A stretch of DNA of 64,000 nt, from contig NC_081387.1 of the NCBI RefSeq assembly GCF_030684315.1, positions 5,436,497 to 5,500,496 of the forward strand. Direction: 5' to 3'. The DNA is from Stegostoma tigrinum (Eukaryota). This document shows positions 798-61,654 of the stretch, in pieces. How positions within the stretch are numbered: the first letter of the stretch is position 1; each line of letters starts with the position of its first letter. A model generated the notes under the pieces. It worked only from the letters and a program-made list of their open reading frames with translations. It did no database searches and was not told where the DNA came from. The position numbers and the translations under genes are program-made.

Positions 798-1516
798 TGA
801 TAACAAAGTGTGGAGCTGGATGAACACAGCAGGCCGAGCAGCATCTCAGGAGCACAAAAGCTGACGTTTCGAGCCTAGACCCTTCATCAGGAAAAGGGGG
901 ATGGGGAAAGGGTTCTGAAATAAATAGGGAGAGAGGGGAGGCGGACCGAAGATGGATAGAGGAGAAGATAGGTGGAGAAGAGAGTATAGGTGGGGAGGAG
1001 ATAGGTCAGTCCGGGGAGGACGGACAGGTAAAGGAGGTGGGATGAGGTTAGTAGGTAGGAAATGTAGGTGCGGCTTGAGGTGGGAGGAGGGGCTGGGTGA
1101 GAGGAAGAACAGGTTAGGGAGGCGGGGATGAGCTGGGCTGGTTTTGGGATGCAGTGGGGGGAGGGGAGATTTTGAAGCTTGTGAAATCCACATTGATACC
1201 ACTGGGCTGCAGGGTTCCCAAGCGGAATATGAGTTGCTGTTCCTGCAACCTTCGGGTGGCATCATTGTGGCACTGCAAGAGGCCCAGGATGGACACGTTG
1301 AACCTAAGATAACAAGATGTAGAGCTGGATTAACACAGCAGGCCAAGCAACGTAAGAGGAGCAGGAAGACTGATGTTTTGGGCCTAGACCCTTCTTCAGA
1401 AATGGGTTCGAAACGTGAACTTTCCTGCTCCTCTGATGCTGCTTGGCCTGCTGTGTTCATCCAGCTCCACACCTTGTTATCTCAGATTCTCCAGCATCTG
1501 CAGTTCCTGCTATCAC
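798..1516 (-). mobile_element. Penelope-like retroelement 3' fragment with an inverted terminal segment
   Basis: Peptide RRLQEQQLIFRLGTLQPSGIN (C-terminus of the PLE GIY-YIG region). The same terminus recurs at 26341 and 44560-44686. The segment 1307-1516 is rearranged/inverted. Confidence 0.85.
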
Positions 1517-2039
1517 TGTTGAACATCTGTATCTTCCCGCTGGTGTTATACAGTTACTGTTTCACCCCGAACACAGGGAGGTGATGGCCTCATGCTATTA
1601 ATGCTAAACTATTATTCGAGAAACTCGGCTAGTTTTCTGGGGAGAGCTAGTGGGAACTGCCGATGCTGGAGAATCCAAGATAACATGGCTTCAGATTTCT
1701 GAAGAAGGGTTCAGGCCCAAAACATCAGTTTTCCTGCTCCTTAAATGCTGCCTGGCCTGCTGTGTTCACCCAGCTCTACACTGTGTTATCTCTAATTTTC
1801 TGGGGACCCGGGTCTGAAACTGTGATGGCTGATGGTGGAATGTCTGAAGTTGCGAATTTAAAGATCATTGGAGGGAAAAAAAGTAGTGGCTCACTAATGT
1901 CCTTCAGAGAAGGAAACTGTAGTCCTTACTCTGCCTGGCCTGTATGTCTGTCACTTCAGATCCACAGCAATGTGGTTGACTCTGAAATGGCCTAGCAAGC
2001 CATTCAGTTGCATCAATTGCTTCCAGATGGACCATGGGA

Positions 2040-14080: not shown

Positions 14081-15379
14081 CACCAGCAAACGGCTGGATC
14101 CCGTATACCTCATGATCAGATGTACGGGACTGGTGTTCGAGAATCATGGAAGCTGGTCACAAAAAAAAGTGACAGACAGACAGATTCACAACCACCGAGT
14201 AAATTACTCTACAGAAACAGGCCTCTAGGCCCATCGTGTCAGGGCTGGTTCTCCGCAGAAACAGATCATTTGGCCCATTTCTGCAGAAGGGTCCCCACCT
14301 GAAATGTTAACTTTCCTCCTCCTCTGATGCTCCCTGGCCCGCTGTGCTCCGCCAGCTCCATGTTGTTATATTTGGCCTCACCGTTTCCTTATTGCCCCAC
14401 AATTATTTGTCTCCTCAGAGTTAGCTGAATTCCCTTTGAAAAACATTCAATCTGCCTCCATACTCTCATTCAATCCATTCCTGATCCAAACCATTGGCTA
14501 CGGAGGAATAAAAGGCAATCTCCCCCTCACCTCCCCCCCCCCCCCCCCCCCACCGTCTACCAGTCAATACCCTCTAGTTTTCAATCAAAGGTAACAGTTT
14601 CTCTATTATTCTTTCCAGGCCTCTCATGTTATTGAAAATCTCAACGGAACATCCTCTAAATGGCATGGCAAGGTGTAGAGCTGGATGAACACAGCTGGTC
14701 AAGCAGCATGAGAGGAAGAGGAAGGCTTACGTTTCGGCCCTAGACCCTTCTTCAGAAATGGGGGAGGGGAAGGGACTTCTGATATAAATAGAGAGGGGGA
14801 GGCGGATAGAAGATAGATAGAGGAGAAGATAGGTGGAGAGGAGACAGACCGGTCAAAGAGGTGGGGTCAAAGATCCTCTGAGTGACTCCAACTTTGCCAA
14901 CCTATCCTTGCAACTGAAGTTCCTCATCCCTGGAATTGTTCTAAATAAATATTTTCACTCCTTCAAATGTCTTCATAACCTTGCTAAAGTGTGATATGCC
15001 GATTTAACACAATGAGGGTAAAACAAATCTCCTTTTACAGTTTACCATAGCTTCCTTTTTTTTGTACTTTATACTTCTTAAAGAAACAAGATCCCACGTG
15101 CTTTATTAGGCAGTTTCTCCACCTATCCTGTCACCGTCAATAGGCGATACGCATATACCTCCAGGACTCTCCCTCTGTTCCTATGCCTCCTTTAGAATAA
15201 TTTGCTATATTTTCTACTATCTTGCCTCGTTCTTCGTCCCAAAATGTAAAACTTCTTGCTTTTCTGCATTGAAATTCAGCTGCCACGTTTCTGTCCATTC
15301 CATCAGTCAGTGTCTAATCCATCAGTATCCTCCTTTCAAATTGTGCCGAAGTCACCTAAATATGAGGAATACGTCTCTT

Positions 15380-16435: not shown

Positions 16436-19140
16436 TAAAAAAAACTGAAGTATTCTTCAGATATATGAATGACAAAAGTGGAAAAAAAGGTGTGTGATAA
16501 ACAAAAAGAGGGCAGAACCAGATGGATAGCATCTGAGATGGATTGTACCCGTGCATATTAAAAGTATTTTGTGGACCCTGAACAACTTCATATCATTGTA
16601 CATCAATTGGGTTTATTTTAATGATAGGTTTCCATTATCTGTCTGTACTCAAAACATTGAGAAACTGAAAATATTACTGAGAACAATTGACATAGATTCC
16701 AACTTACCCAATTTTACCCAAGGGGTAACAGAAAGAATAAATAGGGTCATGAGTTGACATTGTGACATGGACTTTTCTTTCCCAATGGCTGTGAGCACAT
16801 TTTTTCTCATTAGTTTTTTTATTGTGGGGTGTGAGTAAACCTGGCAAGTCCAGCACTTCAGCCCATCTTTAACTGCATTTCAGCCTGAGTGGCTCCCTAC
16901 ACCATGTCATAGGGCAGTTACGTGTGAATTGAAGAGTCATGTGTGGGCCAAACCAAGTAAGGGCAGCAAAGGGCCTCCCAAAAGAGCATTACCAAAACCA
17001 GATAGGTTTTTACAACAATTAGTATACTTTATTGGTCACATTATTCACTCAAACTAACTTTTAATTCCAATTTTCCTTTTAATCTTTTATTCCACCAGTT
17101 GCCATAATGACACTTGAATATTTGATGCTTGGGTCTCCAGACTACTGACTATAACATTACTGTGACACCACTCACTCCCTATAACAGTGGAAGGCCAGTA
17201 GAACCAGTGAACTTGTATCCTTGATATAAGCCTGGAAATAATTAATAAAATAATTTTAATGTTTTAGTTTTCATTCTTGTGTGCTAAAGAATTTTTTTTT
17301 AAAAAAATAATCTGAATGTATACATTTCCCTGCAAAAAAAAGGTTAAATGAATAGCTTATATAACATGGTGTGGAGCTGGATGAACACAGCAGGCCAAGC
17401 AGCATCAGAGGAGCAGGGAAGCTGACGTTTTGAGTCTAGACCCTTCTTCAGATATACAGTTCATTTGAGCCCTAAACCCTTTTCATTTCCAACCTAACCA
17501 GCGTATGGGTGAAGTTGAACAGGTTAGTGAAATGTTGTGTGAACATTCTGTGAGGGCAAAAGAGATCTAGAATTTTTCTGTCAGAATTCTGGTTGTGTGT
17601 GAAGACTAACAATCAGGGCACCACACCGCATACTGTGTGATGGTTCCTTCTGCTAGCATGTGTTTTATGTAATAAAAACCAAAAGAGCTGTGATGCTGTA
17701 AATCAGGAACAAAAACAAAGTTGCTGGAAAAGCTACTGGGAGCATCTGTGAAGGAAAAAACTGTTGGAGTGTTTCATGTAAGTTGGATTTGGCATAGCAA
17801 TATCAGTGCTTCATTTCATTCAACTCTGGATGGCACATGGAGACTAGATGTTGAGTATCTCTTGGCATCATCAGATTTTGTGACGTTGTGTGTAACCACA
17901 TGCCTCAATAGGCCTAGTGAGAACATAATTTAACATTTTCACAAAATTATTTAAAAACACAATGTTTATCTTGTGTAAGAACTTCATTAATTAAATATTG
18001 AATGTTACTATGTTGCTGTTTTGTTTTATTAGCAATATTAAGTATTGTCAATTTTCAACAATTAAAATAGTTCACTTTAGAAAATAATTTGGGAAACACG
18101 GGTCTAACGCATCTTTGCCTTATAATTTCCTTTCTTGTGTTGTGTTTTCAATTTCTACTTCTGTCTCAGTCTTTTTGGGACTGGTTCTCTCTCTCTCTCC
18201 CCCTCATGTGCCTCACGAGGGGCTCTTTCTCGGTGCCTCTAATTTAACTTGCCCTCTTCCTCTGTGTGTGGCAAGTCACTCCTTCATTGTGTTTTACTCT
18301 TTAGGTCTGATGCCTGACTGACTGGATGGAATGTATTTGAGAGAACTATGAGAGATGTTGAGCAAGGCCTTTCTTGATATTCAGATCAACACACTGCATT
18401 TTCCAACTAATTCCAAACAGTGAGAAGCTAATTAATGAGGATGATTGCTCATTATTATGCACATGAATATCTAATCTCACTTTATTAAAATGCATTCTAT
18501 TACAATTGCATTGAAACAAGATGCCAAGAATTTCTGAGCTGAAAGTAAGAGCAGGTACAGAGCAACTCTGAATCACTTCTTCCTCCTTTGGATCTCCATC
18601 TTGGACACCGGGCACCAACGCTACAGGGCACACTTCATGAGCAGCAGCCACATACATACCACATGCCTGGACAGTGGAATCTGACACGTCAGCTTCTCCA
18701 CACCAAATGGTCATGTCTCAAAACAAAAGGGGATTAGTCTTCAGTCAAATCAAGGGCGGCTCCCTTCAGTCAGAGGGACCTGGCACAGTAAGTCAAAGGC
18801 AGCGTGTGATATCAGTCCTGGTGCTTGGGTACAGTCAGTCAGCTCTTCAGGGTTAGAATCCTCTCCTTACAGGGTGAGGAGCTGGATATTAGACACCAGA
18901 GGCCATACAGGGTCAGTGGTGTGGGGGTCATTGGGTGACAGCAGGTGAGGAGAAGTGTTATAAAAGTAAAATACAGAACTCTCAACATTAATTCTGTTTC
19001 TCTCTCCAGAGATGCTACCAGACTAACTGAAGAAAGTTATTGCTCTCAATAGCGAGTGTCGTGCATGAACGTTGGTGGGAGGTGGGTGCAGTAGAAGAGG
19101 CAGAGTGAGTGTAAGGTGAATGAAGAGAGAAGTAGTGAAG

Positions 19141-26100: not shown

Positions 26101-26340
26101 ATCCCTTCACCTTCATGCTTGCTACTGGGACAGATAGTGTTGGAAAAGGGGGAACACCCACACCGAAGTTTATGCCGAGGTTTCTCTTTTTTTTAAAAGG
26201 TTTTTTTGTGGCGCTGGAGCAACACCATCTTCTACCTCAGAGCTGCATGTACAAACATCACGCCAAAAACTCACCACAAAAACCGGAGGGTGTGTTCGGG
26301 GGGAGGAGAGAGAAGAAAATAAACACCTGCAGCGATGTGC

Positions 26341-27560
26341 AAGATAATAAAGTGTGGAGCTGGATGAACACAGCAGGCCCAGCAGCATCTCAGGAGCACA
26401 AAAGCTGACATTTCGGGCCTAGACCCTTCATCAGAAAAGGGGGATGGGGAGAGGGTTCTGGAATAAATAGGGGGAGAGGGGGAGGCGGACCGAAGATGGA
26501 GAGAAAAGAAGATAGGTGGAGAGGAGAGTACAGGTGGGGAGGTAGGGAGGGGATAGGTCAGTCCAGGGAAGACGGACAGGTCAAGGAGGCGGAATGAGGT
26601 TAGTAGGTAGGAGATGGAGGTGCGGCTTGAGGTGGGAGGAAGGGATGGGTGAGAGGATGAACAAGTTAGGGAGGCGGCGATGAGCTGGGCTGGTTTGGTG
26701 ATGCAGTGGTGGGGAGGGGACGAACTCGGCTGGTTTTGGGATGCAGTGGGAGAGGGGGAGATTTTGAAGCTTGTGAAGCCCACATTGATACCATTGGGCT
26801 GCAGGGTTCCCAAGCGGAATATAAGTTGCTGTTCCTGAAACCTTCGGGTGGCATCATTGTGGCACTGCAGGAGGCCCATGATGGACATGTCGTCTAAGGA
26901 ATGGGAGGGGGAGTTAAAATGGTTCACGACTGGGAGGTGCAGTTGTTCACTGTGAACCGAGCGGAGGTGTTCTGCAAAGCAGTCCCCAAGCCTCCGCTTG
27001 GTTTCCCCAATGTAGAGGAAGCCACACCGGGTACAGTGGATACAGTATACTACTCTGGCAGATGTGCAGGTGAACATCTGGATACAGTATACTACACTGG
27101 CAGATCTGCAGGTGAACATCTGCTTGATATGGAAAGCCATCTTGGGGCCTGGGATGGGGGTGAGGGAGGAGGTGTGGGGGCAAGTGTAGCACTTCCTGCG
27201 GTTGCAGGGGAAGGTGCTGGGTGTGGTGGGGTTGGAGGGAAGTGTGGAGCGGACAAGGGAGTCGCGGAGAGAGGTCTCTCCAGAAGGCACACCATGTTGG
27301 GGATGGAAAAACGTCTTGGGTGGTGGGATCGGATTGTAGATGGCAGAAGTGTCGGAGGATTATACGTCGTATCTGGAGGTTGGTGGGGTGGTGCGTTAGA
27401 ATGAGGGGGATTCTCTTAGGGCGGTTATTGCAGGGGTGGGGTATGAGGAATGTGTTGCGGGAAACGTAGGAGACACGGTCAAGGGCATTCTCGGCCACTG
27501 CAAGGGGGGATGTTGCGGTCCTTGAAGAATGCGGACATTTGGGATGTACAGGAGTGGTTG
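26341..27560 (-). mobile_element. Penelope-like retroelement, 5'-truncated (GIY-YIG endonuclease part)
   Basis: VVYCIHCTRCGFLYIGETKRRLGDCFAEHL (GIY-YIG) and the upstream CNRRKCYTC motif; colinear with 43500-44650. Confidence 0.92.
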
Positions 27561-30500
27561 GAAAAAGGCAGTGGTATCCCACATTGTTCATTTTTAGAAC
27601 TTTATGCAGATCAGCGTACATTGATTTAGATTTTGGCTACGGAATCAGGGAATGACACTGACATTTACAGATGTTATTAAAATGAAAGTGGATAGCACTT
27701 CATGTTTACAGAAAGGTGCATTTAAAATACAGCCCAATTGGAGATTCAGTGCTTTGAATGGCAGAATGGAACCCTTGAGAGAGTTTAACTGGCAGTTCTT
27801 TGATGCAAACCTTGCAAACGTAGAGTGGGTGTCACATGCTTGTCGGGTTCCCAATTCCAGGCTCATTCTTTGACCTCCATGCATTTTTTTTATAACCGCA
27901 AGAGTTATCACAGGCAACTGACCAACCTTCCTATCATCAAAATCACTGCCTTTTTTGTGCTTTTTTAAAAACTACTGTTCACCATCCATGAATATACCCC
28001 TGTAGCTAATTCAAGATTTACATGAAAAGAAACAGAAGTTGTTGGAATAGCTCAGTAGGTCTTGCAGCAGCTGTGAAGAAAAAAAAGAGTTAACATTTTA
28101 AGTCTGGTGACCCTTCCTCAGAAGTCATGGAAAGCCAATTTTGGTCAATCAAACCATCAAAAGTGCGGAGGTGTAGGGAGAGAGGGAAGAGGCTCAATCA
28201 AAATGGATTTGGTGGAGGGAAATAAAACACTCTTATCCCTGCATACCACCTTTCATAATTCCTTCTCAGCCTCCTTTCCTTAAATGAGGGTAGACGGCAG
28301 CATGATAGTTCTGGCAGTAGTCTAGTAATGCAGAGATTCAGGCGATTTCCCTGGGACGTATGTTCAAGCCACAGCTGGGGAAATTTAAATTTGGTTAATA
28401 ACTCCAGTCTGAATGACCATGAAATTTTCGTTGATTGTGATATCTGTTTCACAAATAACACTTTAGAAAAGAAGATTTGTTATCCTTACTAGATTAGCCT
28501 CCGTGCAATTTCAGACCCGCAGTAATATGGTTGACTTTACCTGTCCTGAAATGCCCAAGCAATCCACTTCAAGGGCATTGAAGGTTGGTGACAATTGCTG
28601 ACCTTGCCTGGTTCATGTCAATATTTTAGAAGTAATACATAGTTCTGACAACTTTATTGTGAAGGCAAGGTAATTAAAATTGATAGCATTGATGGACACT
28701 GCTTGCTTCCTCTCCTAGGACATGCTGGCATGAATGTAACTGTGGAAGAGGGGCAGATAGTTGGTAGAGATGACCCATCCACAGTCTGCTGCTTGGACCT
28801 GTTTATGGCCAGCCTAGTCAGGCCCAGGGGCAGACCATGAGGAGGTCCTCTGATCTGCCCACCCCCCTCTGCACCAGGCGTCAAAAGATAAGGAGTCTGG
28901 GGATGAAGTTTAAAATCAAAAGCACAACAAAATATTTTTAAACTAAGAAGGAAGTGCAATCACCCACAACCAATATATACATGATTCATGAACTCCAGAG
29001 TGCTACACATTAAACCTCCATGCCCTTATTTTGAAACTATTGAGAGTTCCTGAAATTAGATGTTCTTTCCTGTGCATTACATAGGCGCTGATTTTATTGT
29101 TTCAAACAGCAGCAGGACCTTTCCTCTCCCCGGCTTTCTTTCTCCCCTTCCCCCTAGTTGGTAGGACCAGCTGGAACCAACTGCTGTCCCTGGTTTCTGA
29201 GCACAGTTTTTTTTAAAACCTGAAGTTTTAAGGAAGGATCACCAGACCCGAAATGTTAACTCTGATTTTTACCTTCACAGATGCTGCCAGGCCTGCTGAC
29301 CTTTTCTAGCGGCTTCTGTTTTTTGATGCATGTTGCATTTTAAAAAAAAAATTATTCCTCTTGCTTTATGCATTACAACTTGTGGACACGACTTTGGGTT
29401 GTTGGGTATCCAAAAATCATTGCAACCGGGCAGAGTAACAGCTGTTCAGTATTTATCATAATTCGCTTTTCCAATGAGTCTCTGGAAATTTCACAAAGCC
29501 ATTTACGACAGTTCCAGGATAACAAGATGTGGAGCTGGATGCACACAGCAGGTCAAGCAGCATCAGAGGAGTAGGAAGGCTGACGTTTCAGGTCTAGACC
29601 CTTCTTCTACAGTTCCACGCCATCGACTGACTAAACCTAACGAGTGTCCAGAGCAGAGAGAATGGGTAATTGGTGCAAATGGAATGACGTCACAATAACG
29701 TCAAAATAATGTTGTAAGATGTAAATTTATAGGAACGTACCAGATCAGCAGATTATAAATAGCAATTGACCATATATTAATATTTTAAACTATATTTTCA
29801 AACTGAAGTAAAAATCATCTCAAAGCTTCAATGCACTTTTCCAGAATGCCAACTTAATCTTGGATAATTATGACAGGATTAATGCAGTTCCAGGAAGTTC
29901 CATTTCCCTGCCACACTATCAAAGTGCTGTTGGGACTAAGCAGACTAAGTAAACTGAGATTGTTACCAAACATAATCTTAATTTTCTTTGAATCGAGTTT
30001 CAATAACACTTTTTCTCTTCACTACATTTTTTTAAAAGAAGTGTTAAAAAGCGAGGCAACTGTTCTTATGGGTTGCTATTCTCCACTAGGTCACCCAGTG
30101 CAGACTATGGCTTGACTTTAGATGTGCTAGAAAAGGTGCACCTATTGATTTAATTACTATTGAAACAGCAATGACAGACCCAAACAAATACAGATGACCT
30201 GAGTCTATCTGAACGTCCATTGATTAACGGTGACTCACTGATATTCACATCAATGTAAAAGCAAAGTACTAGAGGAGAAAGCATATCTCATCTTAAAATT
30301 TTAGTGCTGTGGTCCTGCTACAAATTAAATGCAAAATGAGTACAATATTGAGGCACATCAAAGCATGGGATAGGTGGTATCCATAACTATCAAAAACCGC
30401 ATTATTCACGATGAAAACTGACAGAAGTAATTAAGTGGACCGAGGGATCAAAACAGAATGTAGAAGTGGGCACTGGAGGAGGTTGTGATGAAAATTGAAC

Positions 30501-33394: not shown

Positions 33395-34507
33395 TTATCC
33401 CAAACTGGTACATTTATGTATTTCTAGAGAGGAGGAATAGGTGAAGCAGTTTTGGCAGCTACTGCACTGGAATCGTCTGTCCCCTGTGTGGGTATGCTGG
33501 TGTTTTGTCAGGTCTGATAATTGTGTGAAACCTTTATTGCAAAACTCACATTTGAACGGTTTATCAGACGTTGGGACACACTGGTGTTTCAGGAAGTATG
33601 ACGAGCTCAGGAAAGCTTTGTCGCAAGTCTCACACCTGAATGGTTTGTCACCAGTGTGGATACACTGGTGTACCACAAGGTATGCTGAGCTGCAGAAATC
33701 TTTATTACAATTCTCACATCTGAATGGTCTCTCATCTGTATGGCCTTGTTGGTGTACACGCAGGTATGAGGAGTTACAGAAATCTTTGTTGCAAATCTCA
33801 CACCTGAATGGTCTCTCCTGTGTGTGGATACGCTGGTGTTGTTGGAGACTTGATGACTGCGTGAAACACTTGTTACAATATTTACAATGAAACGGTCTTT
33901 CTCCTGTATGCATGCGTTGATGAACACGAAGGTACGATGAGTTACAGAAAGTTTTTTTGCAAACTGTGCACCAGAAGGGCTTTGTGTCTTTCCCAATGCA
34001 TTTGTGTACCCGGAAGATCAATGGCTTCGTAAAAGCTTTGCGACAAATTTTGCACTTGAATGGTTTCTCAGTGGCATGAGTGCGCTGATGTTTCAAAAGT
34101 AGTGAGGAAAGTGTGAAAGCTTTGTCACAATTCTCACACCTGAAGGGCTTCTCACCTGTGTGGGTGCGCTGGTGTTCTAGCAGACGCGAGGATGTCACAA
34201 AAGCTTTGGCACAAATGTTGCACTTGAACGGTTTCTCTCCTGAGTGAGTGCGGTGATGTTCCACAAGGTGTGACTGCTTTAAGAAGGCTTTCCCACAAAC
34301 TTTGCACTTGAATGGTTTCTCACCTGTATGTATCCGCCAGTGTTGCAGGAGTGTAGATGCTTGTGCAAAGGAATTGCCACACACTTCACATTTGAATGGT
34401 TTCTCACCTGTGTGAATGCGTAGGTGTTCCACAAGGCCAGACGCCTGTGCAAAGGGCCAGCCACAGATGTCACACTTGTATGGTTTCTCTCCCATGTACC
34501 TGTACAT
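33395..34507 (-). CDS. Tandem C2H2 zinc-finger protein A (370 aa from the first in-frame ATG; 13 fingers, 3 ending H-x-C; no KRAB/SCAN/BTB seen)
   Basis: Uninterrupted ORF of C-x2-C-x12-H-x3-H repeats with TGEKP-type linkers. An in-frame TAG lies upstream (~34646). The exon acceptor tttttaccgtcttacag|A is at 35031/35030. Confidence 0.9.
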   Translation of the reverse strand: MYRYMGEKPYKCDICGWPFAQASGLVEHLRIHTGEKPFKCEVCGNSFAQASTLLQHWRIHTGEKPFKCKVCGKAFLKQSHLVEHHRTHSGEKPFKCNICAKAFVTSSRLLEHQRTHTGEKPFRCENCDKAFTLSSLLLKHQRTHATEKPFKCKICRKAFTKPLIFRVHKCIGKDTKPFWCTVCKKTFCNSSYLRVHQRMHTGERPFHCKYCNKCFTQSSSLQQHQRIHTQERPFRCEICNKDFCNSSYLRVHQQGHTDERPFRCENCNKDFCSSAYLVVHQCIHTGDKPFRCETCDKAFLSSSYFLKHQCVPTSDKPFKCEFCNKGFTQLSDLTKHQHTHTGDRRFQCSSCQNCFTYSSSLEIHKCTSLG

Positions 34508-35440
34508 ATGTTGACAACAACACTGTGACTTTAAATCCTTACAACTGAATTCTTGCCGGTTCCCATATACCCATGTTAGGAGGTCTGACAGTGTGAAAAT
34601 CTCTTCTCCCACCTCTTGCTGTTCACTGAACTTAGTTTTGAGTGTCTAGTCAAAAGAACGGTTGAAGCTACTTCCTCAGTTCAGATTTTAGTAGATTCTT
34701 ACCTTAATGGATGTACCAATGCTTCAAGAATTTTATCAGTCGTGTGTGAAAGTCAGGGCTTGTGCAACTATGCTCATACAAATCCCTTTGTCCTCTGGAA
34801 TAAGTAAACTCAAAGCTCACCCTGGTTTTCGAAACATTGGTTTTGGAGAGTGTTCAATAGTGATAATTAGTTTTGCTTCCTATAATGCACTGAAGTTCAG
34901 TTCTCTTGACTGGATTTTCAGAAGATGATTTTGCTGGAGAGCCACTCTTTGATGTTCTGGATGCACTGCAGTTTTTGTCCTTCCTGTAATTTTTTCTGTA
35001 CCGAACATTATTTAATCTGGTCTGATCCTTCTGTAAGACGGTAAAAAGAAATCATGATTTACATTCTATTATCTCCCCTCTCCACCAAAGCTACTATCTG
35101 CACTCAGATCGCCCACATCATTCCCCAGGTCAGGAACCCTAAAGTCTGTATTGCCCAACCTGACTTGGTCAGTTACCTCAGCAGCCTTTTGTTGAATGTG
35201 AGCTCTTCTGATAGTTTTGTTACTCTATCTTCCAGCTAAAATGGAGGAATCATGGTTTTGCAGAACACGTCCACACCATACGTAAGCATGACCCTAACCT
35301 GCCTGTAGCTGGTCATTTTAACACAGCGTCCTGCTTGCCTGCCCACATGTCTGTTCTTGGCATGCTGCAATGCTCCAGTGACTCACAGGGCAAACTGGAG
35401 GAACAACATCTCATCTTCAGGCTGGGCACTTGACTACTTA

Positions 35441-35742: not shown

Positions 35743-36384
35743 TACTTCACTACTTAATATTGAGTTCAACATCTTCAAATTGTGAACACACTGCTATTCC
35801 TTACCTTTCTTTTTGCTTTACTTCTTACAATGTCAGTCACCCTTTCTGCCACACTCCTTGCCCAGTGGGACTGTCTGTTCTTTCCAATCTGGCAGTTAGA
35901 CACATCATTGTTTTGCCATTCTCACATTCCAATCACTTAATGTGAACTGAACAAATCAACACCTTATCTGCCTCAGCACTCCACTTCCCTCCCACTGCCA
36001 TTGCGTAAATGCTGCTCCCTCCACATTTGATGAAGAGTCATCTAGACTCAAAACATTGGCTTGCTGTCTCTCCATGAATGCTGCCTGACCCGCTGTGGTT
36101 TCCAGGATTTTTCGTTTTCAGTATGAATTCTGCAGTAATTTGCTCCTACACTGAATAAAGAGAATCATGTGGCCTGCTGTGCATTCTGCCTGACAACAAA
36201 CTTGGGCAGTTTGATGACTGTGAATAAGTGGGAGTAAAGTGGTCAGTTTGACTTAGTGAGAGAAGGTACAGCTGTTCATTAACAGAAAATTGTGATAGCT
36301 GTGCTAACGGTGGGTAGACATTACCTCCAACTCCAGGCAAAAACCTTTTAATCTAAAAATGGCCATGAATGTCACTCACTTTTT

Positions 36385-40215: not shown

Positions 40216-40479
40216 CTCAAACATTTCAGTACCGGTGATAATCTTCAAAGTGTACTTTGTACTGGCTAGAGCAATTTCTGCACAGAGCTTATTAATGGCA
40301 CCCTCAACCCAATCATAGTACCTGTGGAAAAAAAACAAAAGAACTGCGGATGCTGTAAATCAGGAACAAAGACAAAGTTGCTGGAAAAGCTCAGCAGGTC
40401 TGGCAGCATCTGTAGAAGAGAAAACAGAGTTAACGTTTTGGGTCCGGTGACCCTTCCTCAGAACCCAGTACCTGTGGAA

Positions 40480-42260: not shown

Positions 42261-42552
42261 ACAGAACGTGTAATCGAGGTGAAACCGGTCAGACAGAATT
42301 TCTTTTTTTGAAAAAGCTGCGTCTTGTCTGCTGCGTTCCTGTCAGCTGCGGCTCTGTTGGAGCCTTGTTTCTATGTGCGAGATCGTGGGTTCCCATCTTA
42401 ATCCGAAGACTGTTTTAACGGAGTGATGCACAAGAGAATGCCACCCTGTAAATGAGATACGTGGTGCAGTTTGTCCGCTCGGGTGGATATGACTCTCTTT
42501 TCTCCTCCATGGGTGAGACGGCTCCACCAGACCTGCTGAGCTTTTCCAGCAA

Positions 42553-44686
42553 TACCCCATCCCCGAGCACCAAACCATCGTCTCCCAAACCATCCACAAC
42601 TTCATCACCTCAAGTGACCTCCCACCCACAGCCTCCAACCTCATTATTCCCCAACCACGCACTGCCCACTTCCATCGCCTTCCCAAAATCCACAAACCTG
42701 CCTGCCCTGGTCGACCCATTGTCTCCACCTGCTCCTGCCCCACCGAACTTATCTCCACCTATCTTGACTCCATTTTCTCCTTCTTGGTCCAAGAACTCCC
42801 TACCTACGTCCGTGACACCACCCATGCTCTCCACCTCCTCCAGAACTTCCAATTACCTGGTCCCCAACACCTCATTTTTACTATGGACGTCCAGTCCCTA
42901 TACACCTGCATTCCCCATGCAGATGGCCTAAAGGCCCTCCACTTCTTCCTGTCCCACAGGCCTGACCAGTTCCCCTCCACTGACACTCTCATCTGCTTAG
43001 CCGAACTCGTCCTCACCCTCAACAGCATCTCTTTCAATTCCACCCACTTCCTACAGACAAACGGGGTGGCCATGGTACCCGCATGGGCCCAAGCTATGCC
43101 TGCCTCAGTAGGTTATGTGGAACAGTCCCTCTTCCGCACCTACAATGGCCCTAAACCTCACCTCTTCCTCCGTTACGTCGTTGACTGTATCGGTGCCGTC
43201 TTGTGCTCCAATGGGGAGCTCGAACAGTTCATCCACTTCACCAACACCTTCCACCCCAACTTTAAATCCACCTGGACTATCTCTGACACCTCTGTCACCT
43301 TCCTGGACCTCTCTGTCTCCATTTTGGGCAACCACCTCGCAACCGATATCCATTTCAAGCCCACCGACTCCCACAGCTACCTGGAACACACCTCCTCCCA
43401 CCCATCTTCCTGCAAAAATGCCATCCCCTATTCCAATTCCTTCGCCTGTGCTGCATCTGCTCCCAGGATGAGGCATTCTACTCCCACACATCTCAGATGC
43501 CCTCGTTTTTCAAGGACCACAACTTCCCCCATGCAGTGGTCGAAAACGCCCTCAACCATGTCTCCCGCACTTCCCGCAACTCATCCCTCACATCCTGTCC
43601 CCGCAATAACAACCAAAAAAGAATCCCCTTGTCATCACGTACCACCCCACCAACCTCCAGATACAACGCATCATCCTCCAACACTTCCACCATCTGCAGT
43701 CCGACCCCACCACCAAAGACATTTTTCCGTCCCCACCCTTGTCTGCCTTCCGGAGGGACCACTGTCTCCGTGACTACCTTATCTGCTCCACATTCCCCTA
43801 CGGCCCCAACACACCCGGCACTTTTCCCTGCAACCGCAGGAAGTGCCACACCTGTCCCCACACCACCTCCCTCACCCCCATCCCAGGCCCCAAGATGACT
43901 TTCCACATCAAGTAGATGTTCACCTGCACATCTGCCAATGTGGTATACTGCATCCGCTGTACCCGTTGTGACCTCCTGTACATCGGGGAAACCAATTGGA
44001 GGCTTGGAGACCGCTTTGCAGAACACTTACACTCTGTTTGCAATAAACAACTGCACCTCCCAGTCGTGAACCATTTCAGCTCCCCCTCCCATTCCTCAGA
44101 TGACATGTCCATCCTGGGTCTCCTGCAGTGCCACGATGATGCCACCCGAAGATTGCAGGAACAGTAACTCATATTCAGCTTGGGAACCCTGCAGCCCAGT
44201 GGTGTCAATGTGGATTTCACAAGCTTCAAAATCTCCCCTCCCCCTACCGCATCTCAAAATGAACCCAGTTCATCCCTGCCTCCCTAACCTGTTCCTCCTC
44301 TCACCTGTCCCCTCCTCTCACCTCAAGCTGCACCCCCATTTCCTACTTACTGACCTCATCCTGCCCCCTTGACCTGTCCATCCTCCCTGGACTGATCTAT
44401 CTCCTCGCCACCTCCCCACCCACACTCACCTTTACAGGCTCCATCTCCGCCTCTTTGACTTGTCTGTCTCCTCTCCACCTATCTTCTCCTCTAGCCATGT
44501 TCGATCCTCCTCCCCCTCTCTCCGTATTTATTTAAGAACCCCCTTCCCCTCCCCCATTTCTGATGAAGGGTCTAGCCCTGAAACGTCAGCTTTCCTGCTA
44601 CTAAGATGCTGCTTGGCCTGCTGTGTTCATCCAGCTCTACACCTTGTTGTCTCAGATTCTCCAGCATCTGCAGTTCCTATTATCTC
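42553..44686 (+). mobile_element. Penelope-like retroelement (RT plus GIY-YIG), decayed
   Basis: RT motifs FTMDVQSLYTCIP, QTNGVAM, LRYVVD (degenerate YxDD) and VTFLDL; GIY-YIG VVYCIRC..LYIGET; frameshifts and stops. Flanked by near-identical TGAGC(AT)TTTTCCAGCAA direct repeats. Confidence 0.93.
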
Positions 44687-45863
44687 TGAGCATTTTTCCA
44701 GCAACTTTGTTTTTGCTCCTGATTTACAGCATCCGCAGTTCTTTTGATTTTTGTTTAGCAGTTAAACAGATTATCTGGCCATTACTTCATCACCGAATGC
44801 AGAACCGGTCCCAATAGCCCAGGAAACTGAAAAACTTCATCATGTACTCCCCTGCCAGTTATGTGTTGGTACTGGATTAATTTAGGATATCCGGTTGACA
44901 TGAATGAGTTGGAACGACGGGTCTGTTTCTGTGCTGTATGACTGACTCAATGTGCTGCCAAGTGGGCGTCAGGCTTCTACGCACAGCCTACTTAGACCCT
45001 GTAGCCTATTCTGCCACTCAATTAGATGATGTCAGTTAAGTAACCTAACTCCAAATATCTGTCTTTGATTCATAGTTCTTTATCTTTGGTTAACATATCT
45101 TTCTGTCTCAGTTTTAAAATTTGCAATTGATCTAGCATTAATTATGCCATGTGGAAGAGGATTCATATCACCATAGCCTTTAGAATTTAGAAGTGCATTT
45201 AGAAGTGCTTCCCAATTTCACTCTGAAAGCTCAAGTTCTAATTTTTAGAGTTTGTCTTCTAGTTCTTGAAACAATGCTCTTTTTCTCTAATTCTGAGTAC
45301 TATTCCTTAGGAGGGATACATTGGCATCTAGATTTATTAGAATGCCTCCTGGACTCCAAATTTTAATTTAAGAGGGGAGACTGAAACAAACTACTGTTGT
45401 ATTTCCATGAAATTTCGAAGATTACAAGGCAGTCTGATCAAGGTTTTCAAGTTCCGGGGAAGTTCCGGAAGAAGATAGGGTAGAAATATTGAAGGAAATC
45501 TGAAATCAGGCTCCAGAAGAAGACTTTAGGACAAAGATCCAAAAGAAATAGAATCTATGATTTTATGGAAGAATGAAAGTGTTTGGTTTCAAGGACAAGA
45601 GAAACATACCCATCTGGAGGCATTTAAGGAGAGAATTCCAGAACTTCGGACCGAGATAGTTGAAGGCACAGTGGTGCGAGTGATAAAAGACCAGAATCAG
45701 AGGAATAGAGAGATTTTAGGACAGGCAGAAGAAGCTCCAGAGATGCGGATGAGATAAGACCATGGAATGATTTAGAAATAAGAGTGACAGTTTTAAAGCA
45801 GAGGCTTTGCCTGACAGAGAGCCAATATAAGTTAACAAACCCAGGATTAATAGGGGAATAAAA

Positions 45864-46107
45864 ACCAAAAAGAACTGTGGATGCTGTAAATCAGGAACAT
45901 AAACAAAGCTGCTGGAAAAGCTCAGCAGTTCCAGCAGTATCTGTGGAGGGGAAAACAGAGTTAACATTTTGGGTCCGGTGACCCTTCCTCAGAACTGAGG
46001 AGTTCTGAGGAAGGGTGACTGGACCCAAAACGTTAACTCTGTTTTCTCCTCCACAGATGCTGCCAGACCTGCTGAGATTTTACAGCAGCTTTGTTTATGT
46101 TCTTGAT
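45864..46107. repeat. Palindromic (tail-to-tail) pair of Penelope-type terminal fragments
   Basis: Inverted arms of ~105 bp around ...CAGAACT-GAGG-AGTTCTG.... Single arms occur at ~17676, 28025, 29225, 40335 and 61440. Confidence 0.75.
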
Positions 46108-55066: not shown

Positions 55067-56059
55067 TTAATGCAGTACATTCCTCGTCAACACATCAAGT
55101 ATTCTTCTACTTACTGACAGTATGGATTGAATAATTTCTATGTAGTGTGAATGAGTCTGTGTATTTCCAGAGAGGACGAGTAGGTGACAGAAATTACACT
55201 GAAAACGTCTATCACCCTTATGTGTGAGCTGGTGTTTCAGAAGGTCTGGAAACTGGGTGAAACCTTTGTTGCAAAATTCACATTTGAACGGCTTGTCACC
55301 TGCTGGAATGCACTGATGTCTCGGGAAATAGGATGAGCTGCAGAAATCTTTGTCACAAACCTCACACCTGAACAGTCCCTTCCCTGTGTCGATGCACTGG
55401 TGTACCATAAGGTACGCTGAGCTACAGAAATGTTTGTCACAAATCTCACACCTGAAAGCCCTGCCATCAGTATGGATGCGCTGGTGTGATCGGAGGTATG
55501 ATAAGCTGCAGAAATCTTTGTTACAAGCCTCACACTGGAACGGTCTCTCCTCTGTGTGGATACGCTGGTGCCCAACAAGGTAAGCAGAACTGCAGAAATC
55601 TTTGTTGCAAACGTCACACTGGGACAGTTTCCCACATTTACGAATGCAGTTATGTTCCAGGAGGCCCACTGAAGTTAGGAAAGCTTTGCTGCAGGCTTCG
55701 CACTTGGAAGCTTTCCCTTCCGTGTGGGTACGCCAATGCTCCGTGAGGTGTGACTGCGTCAGGAATGCTTTGTCACAAAACTTACACTTGAGAGGTTTCT
55801 CACCTGTGTGGATATGCCAGTGTTGGAGCAGTGTGGATGCTTGTGCAAAGGCCTTTTCACAAGCCTTGCATTGGAATGGCCTTTTCCCTGTGTGAACGTG
55901 CCGATGTTTCACCAGACTCGATGAATGACTGAAAGCCTTATCACACACCTCACACTTGAATGGCCTTTCCCCGGTGTGCATGCGGAGGTGGCTCACCAGT
56001 TCTGGTGACTGCTCAAAGGTCCACCCGCACATGTCACACAGGAATGGTTTCTTTCCCAT
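55067..56059 (-). CDS. Tandem C2H2 zinc-finger protein B (330 aa; 10 fingers plus a frameshifted 11th), paralog of ZNF A
   Basis: C2H2 array sharing near-identical fingers with ZNF A (AQASTLLQHW, FCSSAYL, FKCEFCNKGFTQ). Acceptor tttttattttacag|A at 56220/56219. Confidence 0.88.
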   Translation of the reverse strand: MGKKPFLCDMCGWTFEQSPELVSHLRMHTGERPFKCEVCDKAFSHSSSLVKHRHVHTGKRPFQCKACEKAFAQASTLLQHWHIHTGEKPLKCKFCDKAFLTQSHLTEHWRTHTEGKASKCEACSKAFLTSVGLLEHNCIRKCGKLSQCDVCNKDFCSSAYLVGHQRIHTEERPFQCEACNKDFCSLSYLRSHQRIHTDGRAFRCEICDKHFCSSAYLMVHQCIDTGKGLFRCEVCDKDFCSSSYFPRHQCIPAGDKPFKCEFCNKGFTQFPDLLKHQLTHKGDRRFQCNFCHLLVLSGNTQTHSHYIEIIQSILSVSRRILDVLTRNVLH

Positions 56060-56621
56060 GTAGATGCCCTTATGTTACAAGACACACCAGATTAAGGCTT
56101 TGCCAAAATCTCACCCCTGAAGCAGATGTGCAGAAGCCTTTATCCTGAAGGAGTAGGATATACCCTTGCCATTGTTTTCTCCCTGTATTCCCAATAAGAT
56201 TTAATCCAATATGTTCTTTCTGTAAAATAAAAACAAAATGTTACATGCCTCCCCGGTTCTTTCCATTCTCCATTGAACACCTGGTTTTTCCCAGGAAACT
56301 CTGGGTGTGTGGGAAAATCTAAGTCAAGTCTTACGCTAGCGTCACCTAAATTTGTTCTTTCCAGCAATGTGCTAGTGTGTAGTCATCAAAAGTGAACTAT
56401 GCAACTCGTTTCTTTCCCTTCTCACCCTAGACCCAGAGCGCTGATGTTCCTGAGTGAATGAATGATAATTAGTCTGTCGTGAGGCAGTTATTAAAATGAA
56501 TGGGTATTAACATGGATAGGTGGGACAACTCAATATAAAACCACAAGTCAAATGCTTTCCTGTGCAAGATATGTTTTGGTTGCATTTGGAATTCTGTGTC
56601 ACTGGCCAAGAAACAGCAAAA

Positions 56622-56977: not shown

Positions 56978-59900
56978 GATTTACTCTTCTGGTTTGAGTG
57001 TGATTAAATATGAAACTAGAGATAGACCTTGGATTCCTCGCATTGTACAATAACTTTTTCTGGTAGCTTTTGGTACATTCCTTCAGTATTCGAAGTAACA
57101 TGAATAAAGACACTCTGTAGACCATCTAGTTTTCAAGAACAAAGAACAAAAGAGCAGTACGGCACAGGGACATGCCCTTTGACCCTCTAAGCCTGTGCCG
57201 ATGATCATGCCCTGACTAAACTAAAAAGTCAATTCAATTTAATTACAATTTAGGGGAGTGTCTGCTGACATGACAGTTTTACACAGAATCTTGAAATTAA
57301 AAATGCAGCCTCGTAAATTTCTAGGAATTGATCTTTCATTTTAAAGTTAATTAATCAAAGGATATTTACAGGATTGTTCATTACTGACACCCACTCTTTC
57401 TATGTACACCACAGTGTTCTTCCATCGTCTTTCACTGCTGTTACTATAAGATCCTTATAACATTGAAATAATTTAGTATTAAATACTTGTGAAAATGATA
57501 CCAATCTCACACCTCAGGTTGCACATAGAGAAAAATAACAAATCAGAGCCTTCACTTAATGAAACTTCCGCACTCCTATCATTTAGTCCACAGAGTGAAG
57601 CTCCCAACTTCATTGCCAGTATTATCAGTCCAACCGAACAAGATCATCGGCTTCCTCGCCCATATCATCTAGTGGATTGACTAAAGTCCGTAGCTTCCCA
57701 GGTCATATCACATAATCACACTGACTAACAGTGTATACCCTTTTTTAAAGATGATGGCTACAACAGTGCACGTTACTCCATTTGCGACTTAACCACAAGT
57801 TCTGGCAGCATCTGTGGAGACAGAGACAGAGTTAACATTTCAAGTCCAATATGACTCCTCTTCAAAATTTGAGTTGAAATTCATCCTGATATTTTAGAAG
57901 AACAATTAAGTATTCCCCTCCTCAACCTTCTTCTGTAACCCTACAAAATCCTTCTGAAAGTCACGATTAAATCTAACTCCACCACCTATTCAGGAAGTGC
58001 ATTTCTAGGGCTTGACGACTCTTGTTGAAATTTTTACATTTGGCATTTCTGGTCCTTTTGCCATTCACCTTAAATCTGCGTCCTCTCATTCTAGACCCTT
58101 ACACAATTGGGAAGCATTTCACTCAATCCACACTGTCTATATCCCATATGACTTCAAATGCTACACTTAATTTAACTTAACTTAGTGTGTAAGATATAGA
58201 AGGGTCTTTCTGGATTACATTTTAGCCTGGAGTCATGGCTGAATAATTAAAGCAATGAGGTTGAAACTAGTGTTTTTCAATGCAAATTCGAATCCTGTTG
58301 ACTGCTCCTACAAAAAGGCTTCTTGTGTTGCAGTGTCCCTGTCCGTAAACAGGTTCGAGTTCCGCCTGCCCTGGAGATGTATCATAACATACCCAAACAA
58401 AGTTGGTTTAAAATCTGTCCAATACTTATTAAAACCATTTCTGAACAGCCTCCAAAGCATTTATTTTAGCTTTTACATTTAAAAAGCAGAAGGTGACCAA
58501 TAATGTGGTGTAACCAAGCATGTTCTGATGCAAATACAAATACCTTTCTCATAATCACATCAAGATCTAATTAACTTTGATGGTAATGGACATAAGGATA
58601 GGTGACTAGCTTTCCTCACCTCTCACTGTAACTCCAGAAAGACTCCATTGTGAAATAGCTGAAAGTGGCTAATGTAGTGAGGCTGAAGGCTTGGCCGTGG
58701 GCATTAACTTACACTGATGGATTTAGTGCTGCATGGATGGGTCTCTGAGCCCAATCTTACCACCCTGGAACTGCAGAAATGAGTCCTAACTTTTGGCATC
58801 TCAAGATGCAATTCCTCTACTCCCTAGCCAAGATCCATGTGCTGGACTGGATTGATTAAAAAAATACAAAATGTTAATATTTTTACAAACTACTTTAAAA
58901 ACAAAATTCACTGCTGTTATATTTTACATGTTAAACTATAATACAAACTTTGACAATTATATGTCAAATACTACAATGCTGATTTATTGCTGTTGTTCAC
59001 ATCTGGGTTCATTTTAATTTTCAATGTTAAAATGGTGTCACAAAATCCTTCTCAAAACATCTCAATGTCTGTCTTTTGTGCCTTTTATCTGACAGAACCC
59101 TTCTTTACTTCAGAAGGTAACAGAATAACACCAGACCACAGATTAGCTGAAAAAAAAACTGATCAAACATCAAAAGAACAAGTGAACAGTACTAATACCA
59201 CAACATGCTTTTTAAAGTACGAAACTTAACCTTAATTGCCTCGTGAAGAACAGGCAGGAAGATGGTTGGAACAATTTCACTGCCTTGTCCATTGTGCTGC
59301 CACCATATTCCTACAAGTTGGCATTTTAATCATGTTGAGGAGCTGAGCAGAAGATCAGCTGGAAGGCAGTTGAGTTCAGCTTTAAAAATTGAAATAAATG
59401 ATATTGTTGTAACATTAGTCCAAAAAATCTGTGTTGGGCCAAAATAGAAATGGCAAGATACATTGTGGAAACATACCCAATGAGAAAATTAATCTGGTTT
59501 TCATTTTCTTGTGGGCTTGAAGCTGGAGTGTTTACCACAAGCCACACGAGGAACTTAAATCTCCCCGGCCCTAAGATTTTGTCCTTATTTCTGATCGCAT
59601 CCTGACTATTAAAAATGGACACTGCTTTCCTCCCATCTCTTGACCCTCCTTCCCTTCAACTTCACAAATCTATCTTTGTTGAATGTCTGTAAATATTCCA
59701 CAGAGCTCCCGGTAGACACCCCCTCCCCCACTGACCATCAGACCAGCTTTCCACCCGTTATAGCTGGGAGACCCTCCAGTTAAAAACTCATTCCCCTTCG
59801 GCCTGCAAGCTTCCAGATGAAATCCAAAACTCAGGCTTAAATAATTGTGAAAAGCTTTATTAGTCAAACTCATTTCAACAATTCACATGACATTTAAATT

Positions 59901-60731: not shown

Positions 60732-61654
60732 AATTGCAACTTCCAGTAAATATGCAAGACTAAGCAGTCCTGAAGAAAGGCAATACTCTTCCTTTCCTCC
60801 AGATGCTGCCTGGCTTGCTGTGTTCTTCCAGCCTCCTGCTTGTCTACCTTCGATTCCAGCATCTGCAGTTTTTTTTGCCTCTAAGCTCCAGCCAATCAAT
60901 TCAACACAAAGCACGGAAGACTCTCGGATGGATCCTCTTGCACAGACGCAGGAGCATTTCTGTTTCTTTCCTTTATCCTCAATGGATAGTCAGACTTCCT
61001 GACTATGAGAATAGTATCACTGTGTAAAACCTGAACAAGTCTCATTCCTGCACCGTCTTCACTCCTCCCACTTTAATGCAGTTGTACGCAGGAACTGTGC
61101 CTCCTGCAAAAAAAAAGGGACAGAGTATTGGGGAACACTGACCGTACCATTTTGACTGGCATTTTGAAACGCCAATCAGGGACTGGAGTACATATAGCAC
61201 TCTGTCAGTATGTTACATGTCAATCACAATTCACAACCAGTTAGTCCGTGCTGAGAGCGGGACTCCCACTCTGCTCGGGAAAGCTGACATTGTATGAGGA
61301 AGTGTTGTATCACGACAGGCAAACAGCTTAGTTGGGGACGATTTGAACAAGACTGCTCCCGAACATGGGCGCCCTCACCAATACTGATAGAGATTCTAAA
61401 GTACGGCAACGGAAGCCAAACAAACATTAATAATAGCAAAAACAAAGTTGCTGGAAAAGCTCAGCAGGTCTGGCAGCATCTGTGAAGGAGAAAACAGAGT
61501 TAACGTTTTGGGTCCAGTGACCTCAGAGCTGATAGTGGCTGGGAAAACATCAGTTTATGTGCAGAAAACAGGGAGGTGGGTGGGGTAAGAACTAAGTGAT
61601 AGGATAGAGCCCAAAGAGAGAGAAAGATAGTTGGACAGGATTTCCAACCTCTCT

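What the first reader, a model, noticed from the sequence alone, without database searches (positions are those of the whole stretch)
44560..44590. Dispersed minimal hammerhead-ribozyme-like motifs with compensatory stem II in Penelope termini
Seen: 44560 reads CTGATGA-AGGG(TCTAG)CCCT-GAAA-CGTC, a hammerhead core (CUGANGA...GAAA...UH). Its stem III is reduced to the palindrome ACGU, which can only form in a dimer. Related copies are at ~863-890, ~14727-14757 and ~26405-26434 (minus) and ~50782 (plus). Other repeat families keep the architecture with different, compensated stem II: GAGTT-CTGAGGA-A-GGGTC(ACCG)GACCC-[G/A]AAA-CGTT-AACTC (46000-46039, 45957-45996 minus, ~40428-40465 minus; stem I GAGTT/AACTC), GAGTC(ATCTA)GACTC (~36027-36057) and GAGTC(ATATTG)GACTT (~57830-57866 minus). 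Established: Penelope-like elements carry minimal type I hammerheads. Inference: at least three or four separate families here keep a dimer-dependent ribozyme. Many copies have GAAA changed to AAAA at a CpG, consistent with methylation-driven inactivation. Stem I of the 44560 family is weak.
Basis: partly seen in the sequence, partly recalled or inferred. Interest (0 to 1): 0.7.

Follow-up and report, generated by a model that had tools for sequence, protein, structure and literature searches.

The report
Penelope hammerheads with cut-site footprints
These are real copies of the already known tiny "hammerhead" self-cutting RNA motif at the ends of Penelope-type jumping genes, present in over 90,000 identical copies in this genome, and the front ends of inserted copies pile up just before the motif and exactly at its predicted cut site, which likely records where the element's RNA starts and that it is sometimes cut in the germ line.

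Summary
The motifs are real and match the minimal type I hammerhead described in Penelope-like element (PLE) termini in 2014. The 44560 copy lies in the 3' pseudo-LTR of a decayed RT + GIY-YIG element (42553-44690). The intact core occurs 90,316 times exactly in the 3.2 Gb, shark-like genome. Stem II covaries across six or seven PLE families. GAAA>AAAA happens at the same rate as other CpG decay (54 of 211 versus 183 of 699), so it is neutral, not targeted silencing. Beyond the known picture: 110 of 390 copies start 0-6 nt before CUGA, about 30 nt after a TATA-like box (likely transcription start). In the young family, copy starts spike at the scissile bond (normalised 3,391 versus 369, 791 and 993 at neighbouring positions). 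That spike is absent in two older families, and a hairpin-stall explanation remains open. Verdict: new member of a known kind, with a testable trace of cleavage in vivo. This scan noted the same readings before on other DNA of this and other genomes.

The parts
42553..44690 (+). 5'-truncated, decayed endonuclease-positive Penelope-like element that carries the flagged motif in its 3' pseudo-LTR
   Evidence: 86% DNA identity to a young genomic copy over 42554-44284; tblastn to that copy's 1112-aa frame covers residues 503-1079 in shifted frames, with a stop in the linker
42538..43736 (+). Reverse transcriptase remnant
   Evidence: 79% identity to residues 503-802 of the L071 frame, which hits RVT_1 at E 2.6e-4, below the curated cut-off
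43610..44263 (+). CX4CxxC linker and GIY-YIG endonuclease remnant
   Evidence: 81% identity to residues 862-1079; linker CNRRKCHTC; GIY-YIG E 0.004 on the young copy, below cut-off
42536..42552 (+). Left copy of a probable target-site duplication; the element sits in an older family B pLTR stub
   Evidence: CTGAGCTTTTCCAGCAA here and CTGAGCATTTTTCCAGCAA at 44686-44704; read by eye
44525..44532 (+). TATA-like box, 31 nt before the predicted start (inferred promoter)
   Evidence: TATTTATT in A copies; TATAAA at the same distance in families B and C
44556..44559 (+). Predicted transcription start and 5' strand of stem I
   Evidence: 110 of 390 copies begin at -6..0 versus 17 in -40..-7; loose ends at 44557 in contigs of two other organisms
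44560..44589 (+). Minimal hammerhead: CUGAUGA, unpaired A (44567), stem II 44568-44579 (two private changes), GAAA, CGUC, predicted cut between 44587 and 44588, stem I 3' strand AG
44590..44690 (+). pLTR tail; genomic 3' ends cluster at about +91..+94 and +126..+131, the two likely reverse-transcription starts
   Evidence: same two-site tail as in PMC11167929
863..890 (-). Family A copy, stem II mismatch, in a pLTR of 795-1298
1372..1399 (-). Family A stub (AAAA), head-to-head with a stub at 1410-1518
1699..1726 (+). Family A stub starting at -4 (AAAA)
14728..14755 (-). Family A copy, stem II mismatch, GUA site
17424..17451 (-). Family A stub starting at -4 (AAAA)
26407..26434 (-). Family A copy at the 3' end of a second truncated element (26340-27557); C15.2>U
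28092..28121 (-). Family B stub, decayed (AAAA)
36027..36057 (+). Family C copy, GAGUC/GACUC stem II, core dead
40432..40461 (-). Family B stub starting at -3 (AAAA)
45857..46094 (.). Head-to-head pair of family B stubs (cores at 45992- and 46005+), joined at their predicted starts; both AAAA
50782..50809 (+). Family A stub starting at -3; G16.2>A
57834..57865 (-). Family D copy, C3>U

Best explanation
The motifs are minimal type I hammerheads in the pseudo-LTRs of several endonuclease-positive Penelope-like retrotransposon families; they likely form the first 30-35 bases of the element's RNA and likely cut a minority of transcripts in the germ line. Shown: the motif, its place behind an RT-GIY-YIG frame, covariation between families, and where genomic copies begin and end. 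Inferred: transcription starts about 4 nt before CUGA, driven by a TATA-like box. The element's protein starts reverse transcription inside the tail (+92 or +128). On the first pLTR of an uncut RNA it runs off the front and leaves a 100-135 bp stub with an intact hammerhead, often two stubs head to head from both strands of one cut. This explains the dispersed copies. On an RNA cut at GUC/AG it runs off at +28, which removes the cap-bearing 5' piece and gives the spike of starts at that base. The monomer is predicted to fold into an inactive hairpin, so cutting would need a second copy (ACGU palindrome) or the element's protein. After insertion the copies decay neutrally, fastest at CpG.
For: Young copies with frames up to 1112 aa end about 230 nt before an intact motif. 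90,316 exact cores, 0 for the reversed control. Family B has PLE remnants upstream at 33-57% identity in 7 of 30 loci (L135, L138, L143, L144, L146, L151, L155). Across 16 copies picked from seven groups only the hammerhead core is invariant; stem II is 97% paired, 3 of 5 pairs change on both sides, covariation 0.68 versus at most 0.15 for slid controls. Starts at -6..0: 27 of 139, 38 of 132 and 45 of 119 in three families. 72 of 151 such starts have a head-to-head partner. Genome-wide normalised starts: +22 323, +25 476, +27 369, +28 3391, +29 791, +30 993, +36 1795. Of 64 inspected +28 starts, 17 are joined to the end of another piece of the element on the same strand, as a template jump from an RNA end would give. 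One array has four units, each starting at +28. One copy has four extra A exactly at the bond.
Against: No excess of starts at the cut site in the older families: 3 versus 24 (old A) and 7 versus 32 (B) for the windows after and before it. The predicted monomer hairpin (-11.4 versus -3.6 kcal/mol for stems I+II) ends at +29, so a stalled RT could give a similar wall. By hand count 43 of the first 100 matches at +28 look like inverted-partner joints where 1-3 shared bases blur the start, and 8 are small indels. +36 is also high. Co-folding two copies does not give the hammerhead dimer. The extra-G sign of a cap is weak: 49 of 100 in one young set (hand count), 8 of 21, 4 of 17 and 6 of 31 in unselected solo copies, and G was target-derived in 2 of the few duplications found. 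In Anolis no RNA ends were found at the site and cleavage was not needed in vitro (PMC11167929). No raw RNA reads were available.
Confidence: 0.65

Rival explanations
1. The hammerheads are inherited PLE features, but the +28 spike comes from RT stalling at the base of the core-sequestering hairpin plus microhomology joins; cleavage leaves no trace or does not happen.
For: The hairpin CUGAUG/CGUCAG is the predicted monomer fold and closes at +29. 7 of 20 near-consecutive +28 loci overlap an inverted partner by 1-3 nt. No spike in old A or B. +36 reaches about half the +28 value.
Against: A stall at the hairpin base predicts +30, which is 3.4-fold lower than +28. After dropping the 51 of 100 doubtful matches, about 1,660 remain, still above the uncorrected +27, +29 and +30. 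The repeated +28 units and the A insertion at the bond fit a free RNA end better.
Confidence: 0.28
2. The pile of starts at -6..0 is not a transcription start but a structural stop or a preferred recombination point.
For: No RNA end data here; the cap-G signal is weak; D. virilis Penelope has a TATA-less internal promoter (PMC2377424).
Against: The wall sits at the same place in three families with different upstream sequence, each about 30 nt after a TATA-like box, and only 17 of 390 starts fall in the 34 bases upstream.
Confidence: 0.15
3. The short copies are an independent non-autonomous element (SINE or retrozyme) that carries its own ribozyme.
For: Most copies are stubs without a frame; a few same-strand repeats at 59-448 nt spacing exist (5 of 14 gaps).
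Against: Stubs are identical in sequence to the pLTR of frame-bearing copies and share their two 3' ends; cores are minimal, not canonical, and arrays are rare.
Confidence: 0.04
4. The +28 starts are the downstream halves of copies split by a site-specific LINE insertion (lead from earlier scan notes).
For: Earlier notes report a Tx1-type LINE that inserts into this motif (not checked by me).
Against: 48 of 64 inspected +28 starts are flanked by pieces of the PLE itself; the 16 others share no common upstream end by eye.
Confidence: 0.03

Closest known systems
[quoted passage not shown]
   Same: Consensus CUGANGA-H-G...C-GAAA-palindrome-UH, unpaired base before stem II, no stem III, short stem I, many families per genome, mostly single dispersed copies. 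The Acropora and Crassostrea rows are near-identical in layout to families A and B.
   Different: No cartilaginous fish among the rows I read. One family here has 90,316 identical cores against about 4,000 and 9,000 motifs in coelacanth and Xenopus. They report no in vivo evidence and no start-site mapping.
Poseidon PLE of Anolis (PAc), Frangieh et al. 2024 (PMC11167929; parts 1-2 of 4 read)
   Same: Hammerhead in the pLTR, two internal RT starts that define a 30-40 bp tail, both DNA strands extended, uncut RNA as main template.
   Different: There the frame starts inside stem II and no RNA ends were seen at the cut site; here the first ATG is at +166, the linker has a CX4CxxC motif, and genomic starts spike at the site.
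Neptune/Nematis endonuclease-positive PLEs (PMC8557442; passages read)
   Same: RT followed by CX2-5CxxC linker and GIY-YIG with CCHH; 5' truncation, partial tandems, inverted 5' copy, tail.
   Different: Clade not placed by a tree here.
Metazoan non-LTR retrozymes (PMC7229834, passages; bioRxiv 10.64898/2026.07.22.740005, part 1 of 5 and passages)
   Same: Type I hammerheads in repeats related to pLTRs; occasional tandem units of 300-450 nt here.
   Different: Retrozymes are tandem arrays, mostly with canonical hammerheads; here copies are dispersed stubs of an autonomous element.

Membership tests
PLE minimal hammerhead | Core CUGANGA ... GAAA ... UH | tested here: met
   Intact at 44560; majority state in three families; invariant columns of the cross-family alignment
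PLE minimal hammerhead | Unpaired base between positions 9 and 10.1 | tested here: met
   A in 68 of 70, 74 of 75, 63 of 66 copies; T in family G
PLE minimal hammerhead | G10.1-C11.1 closing pair | tested here: met
   G-C in 9 and G-U (CpG decay) in 7 of 16 rows; the 44560 copy itself has G-U
PLE minimal hammerhead | Palindromic 15.2-16.2 | tested here: met
   ACGU in A, B, G; AGCU in E (2 rows changed on both sides); 9 of 16 rows altered by CpG decay
PLE minimal hammerhead | Covarying stems I and II between families | tested here: met
   Stem II 97% and stem I 77% paired, 6 of 8 pairs with two-sided change; rows were picked by a structure filter, which inflates pairing
PLE minimal hammerhead | Location in the pLTR behind an RT-endonuclease frame | tested here: met
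   20 of 20 long-frame loci; families B, E, G also next to PLE remnants
PLE minimal hammerhead | Self-cleavage as a dimer or with protein help | not testable with these tools
   Only indirect genomic traces
Endonuclease-positive PLE (Neptune/Nematis type) | Single frame, RT then C-terminal GIY-YIG with CCHH | tested here: met
   RVT_1 and GIY-YIG hits in that order, both below curated cut-offs; motifs read
Endonuclease-positive PLE (Neptune/Nematis type) | CX2-5CxxC linker | tested here: met
   CNRRKCYTC at residue 935; definition from PMC8557442
Endonuclease-positive PLE (Neptune/Nematis type) | Inverted or tandem pLTR arrangement and 30-40 bp tail | tested here: met
Endonuclease-positive PLE (Neptune/Nematis type) | RT phylogeny within the clade | not tested
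   No reference PLE proteins were fetched
Canonical type I hammerhead (Rfam hammerhead families) | Match to the covariance models | tested here: not met
   0 of 12 window matches and 0 of 13 matches in L221 at E up to 10 were hammerhead families
Non-LTR retrozyme | Tandem units each with a hammerhead, no coding capacity | tested here: not met
   5 of 14 same-strand gaps under 500 nt in 120 loci of 10 kb; none in the window

The most novel reading that the evidence does not exclude
In this PLE family the hammerhead is the capped front end of the transcript and really cleaves in the germ line, and the genome keeps thousands of fossil cDNAs that begin at the cut bond. That would be in vivo evidence, missing from the papers I read, that a 2-bp-stem-I minimal hammerhead works, and it would make the ribozyme a switch that uncaps the element's RNA.
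Probability: 0.55. Interest if true: 0.62.

Novelty: new member of a known kind. Interest (0 to 1): 0.4.

Why it matters
The motif class has been known since 2014, so the finding as flagged is ordinary. What is still open in the papers read is whether these weak ribozymes cut in cells and what for. A young family with about 90,000 identical cores gives a single-base map of RNA ends written into the genome. It names a start site (-4), a cut site (+28) and two RT starts (+92, +128), each of which one RACE or cyclic-phosphate sequencing experiment on gonad RNA can confirm or reject.

Tried and rejected
Rfam scans found no hammerhead family, only hairpin matches to microRNA models from the head-to-head pairs. 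Pfam found nothing in the six decayed PLE frames of the window; hits came only with young copies. Targeted methylation silencing was rejected: G12>A 9 of 70, 22 of 75, 23 of 66 against 32 of 210, 62 of 225, 89 of 264 at other CpG positions, and 53 of 1,055 at non-CpG G. A cap-derived G was tested three ways and stays unproven. Folding z-scores were not significant (0.49 to -1.14). Sequencing runs were contigs only, of uncertain RNA status: they show presence and loose ends at -1 to -3, not RNA ends; the loose-end row at +28 in run X2 continues into motif sequence and is no evidence. Palindromic joints were too rare in 1.46 Mb to test (0-1 each). The bacterial promoter scan does not apply. A copy-number record is not claimed: a section title in PMC7229834 gives up to 120,000 hammerheads in axolotl. 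Lunse et al. (PMC5785218) was not held; I saw only its title, and it may cover sharks.

Full report
Positions written +n or -n count from the C of CUGA (0). In the window that base is 44560.

Observation. The flagged bases and all listed copies are present. A strict minimal-hammerhead descriptor passes only 44560 in the window, against 0 in 20 shuffles, and 20 sites in sixty 10-kb stretches taken at round coordinates, against 0 in 5 shuffles. The window has CpG observed/expected 0.28 and lies in a 3.2 Gb assembly. A beta-2-microglobulin exon at 12206-12520 matches three PDB sequences at E about 1e-49, far above the rest; that 6LUO is a nurse shark protein is my recall, so 'shark-like' rests on that.

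Host element. 42553-44690 is a 5'-truncated copy, 86% identical to young copies, with shifted RT and endonuclease frames. A search with 137 residues gave 49,062 first-look candidates, of which 150 were scored, many in frames of 600-1,112 aa. All 20 long-frame loci that I fetched have the motif about 230 nt after the frame, and most have a second, inverted pLTR. Two such frames hit RVT_1 and GIY-YIG in that order, both under the curated cut-offs. A CX4CxxC linker and the CCHH residues are present, which PMC8557442 (passages) gives for Neptune and Nematis PLEs. No tree was built.

The family motif. Young copies read CUGAUGA, A, GGGU(CUAG)GCCC, GAAA, CGUC, AG. This 30-mer occurs 90,316 times exactly; the reversed control occurs 0 times. 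179 pieces of families A and B in 600 kb extrapolate to roughly 950,000 in the genome. Stem I is 2 bp in A and 4 bp in B. The layout equals the published consensus and the rows of Figure S3 in PMC4209133; I saw no cartilaginous fish in those rows. Rfam hammerhead models do not match.

Families and covariation. A, B, C and D share the downstream sequence and are one lineage. A 41-mer of family B with intact GAAA occurs 81 times, and 7 of the 30 loci fetched have same-strand PLE coding remnants upstream at 33-57% identity to A. Two further families, E and G, lack the shared tail; 3 of 7 of their loci have PLE remnants nearby. I aligned 16 of the 357 filter hits and window copies, chosen by hand to span the groups. 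Invariant columns are core positions only. Stem II is 97% paired, 35 cells change on both sides (shuffled mean 10.9), and slid controls score at most 0.15 against 0.68. The count of pairs with two-sided change (7) is not above shuffles (150 of 500 reach it), and the rows passed a structure filter, so this supports the fold without being an unbiased test.

CpG decay. G12>A runs at 13%, 29% and 35% in young A, old A and B, equal to the other CpG transitions and far above non-CpG G. It tracks age. It is not targeted inactivation.

Where copies begin and end. Of 472 copies, 82 were dropped as selected by the exact-match search or cut by a locus edge; 390 remain. 110 begin at -6..0 and 17 in -40..-7 (binomial p 8e-66). 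The wall is seen in each family. TATA-like boxes lie about 30 nt upstream in A, B and C. Contigs from two other organisms have loose ends at -3 or -1. 3' ends cluster at +91..+94 and +126..+131 in A, the two-site tail that PMC11167929 ties to internal RT starts. The simplest reading (inference) is that the RNA starts just before the hammerhead, and that RT started in the first tail runs off that end. Such stubs span the cut site, so their templates were uncut. 72 of 151 starts at -6..+6 have a head-to-head partner within 40 nt, as at 45992/46005. A G before the start, expected from cap copying, is enriched in one young set (49 G, 17 A, 34 T in the first 100 of 1,507; hand count) but not in unselected solo copies of old A or B. 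D. virilis Penelope has a TATA-less internal promoter with the start further upstream (PMC2377424, passages), so this layout is not general.

Trace of cleavage. Genome-wide exact patterns that force a boundary gave 143, 120, 93, 1,349, 315, 395 and 714 matches for starts at +22, +25, +27, +28, +29, +30 and +36. Normalised for the pass rate these are 323, 476, 369, 3,391, 791, 993 and 1,795. +28 is the first base after GUC. In the unselected young set 26 starts fall in +28..+38 and 17 in +7..+27 (p 4e-4), but old A gives 3 versus 24 and B 7 versus 32. I fetched 60 loci holding 64 of the 1,349 matches; 40 were hand-picked and 20 nearly consecutive. 26 join an inverted partner, 17 join the end of a same-strand piece of the element, 5 are indels at the motif and 16 join other DNA. 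In the near-consecutive 20, 7 overlap the partner by 1-3 nt and are ambiguous. L284 holds four tandem units that each start at +28 with slightly different joints. L274 has four extra A at the bond with both sides intact; it is a single case, and single-base indels occur at other positions too. The main rival is an RT stall: the predicted monomer fold pairs the core with the cut site down to +29 (-11.4 kcal/mol). I put cleavage at about 0.55-0.6.

Dimer context. Same-strand neighbours under 500 nt are rare: 5 of 14 gaps in 120 loci. In a full tandem the two motifs lie about 3.5 kb apart (L165). Published work found low activity even for dimers (PMC4209133) and protein-assisted cleavage in Anolis (PMC11167929). 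A review (PMC6765202, passages) states the dimer model.

Novelty. The motif class, its place and the dimer idea are published. Eight searches found no paper on shark PLE hammerheads, on a start site at the motif, or on genomic starts at the cut site. The library lacks most subscription papers, Lunse et al. was not held, and the supplements of the 2026 preprint, which sampled one chondrichthyan, were closed. PMC6155905 and PMC7229834 were seen as passages. Earlier notes of this scan report the same start site and cut-site readings: 1,136 findings hold my five words, and 505 notes in this genome fit. I had reached both readings before looking; those notes are not independent support. Two of them gave me leads (a LINE in the motif, A-tails at the bond) that I checked.

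Verdict. Observation confirmed with corrections; interpretation partly supported; new member of a known kind; interest 0.40, carried by the testable end map and not by the motif itself.

Noticed in passing
window 12194-12655 (-): Beta-2-microglobulin exon (C1-set E 2e-18; best PDB matches E 1e-49).
   Followed up: partly
window 33395-34645 (-) and 55067-56074 (-): Two similar C2H2 zinc-finger array exons near the beta-2-microglobulin gene; only the first was scanned against Pfam.
   Followed up: partly
window 42492-42552 and 44686-44745: The flagged element is inserted into an older family B pLTR stub with a 17-19 bp duplication.
   Followed up: partly
window 61631-62755 (+), 3868-4278 (+), 7604-8062 (-): Fragments of APE-type LINEs (Exo_endo_phos hit on the first; the others judged by eye).
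   Followed up: no
window 35257-35430 (+): A more distant GIY-YIG remnant (48% to the young frame), about 600 nt before the family C motif at 36027.
   Followed up: no
window 20600-22900: Long C-rich low-complexity tract that gives many spurious open frames.
   Followed up: no
L105:7452-8340, L119:5076-5678, L203:4994-5053: Natural same-strand tandem hammerheads at 440/448, 301/301 and 59 nt spacing; ready-made dimer constructs.
   Followed up: partly
L176:9125, L060:5183, L216:1095, L122:8059: Families G and E have other promoter spacing: TATA-like box about 47 nt (G) or 14 nt (E) before CUGA.
   Followed up: no
L071:3462-6797 (-): Young frames end in a short repeated Pro/Ser-rich tail after the endonuclease that older window copies carry in fewer units.
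   Followed up: no
L119:5076-6056: A sub-lineage reads GUC followed by GG, turning one stem I pair into U-G (5 of 70 young copies).
   Followed up: no
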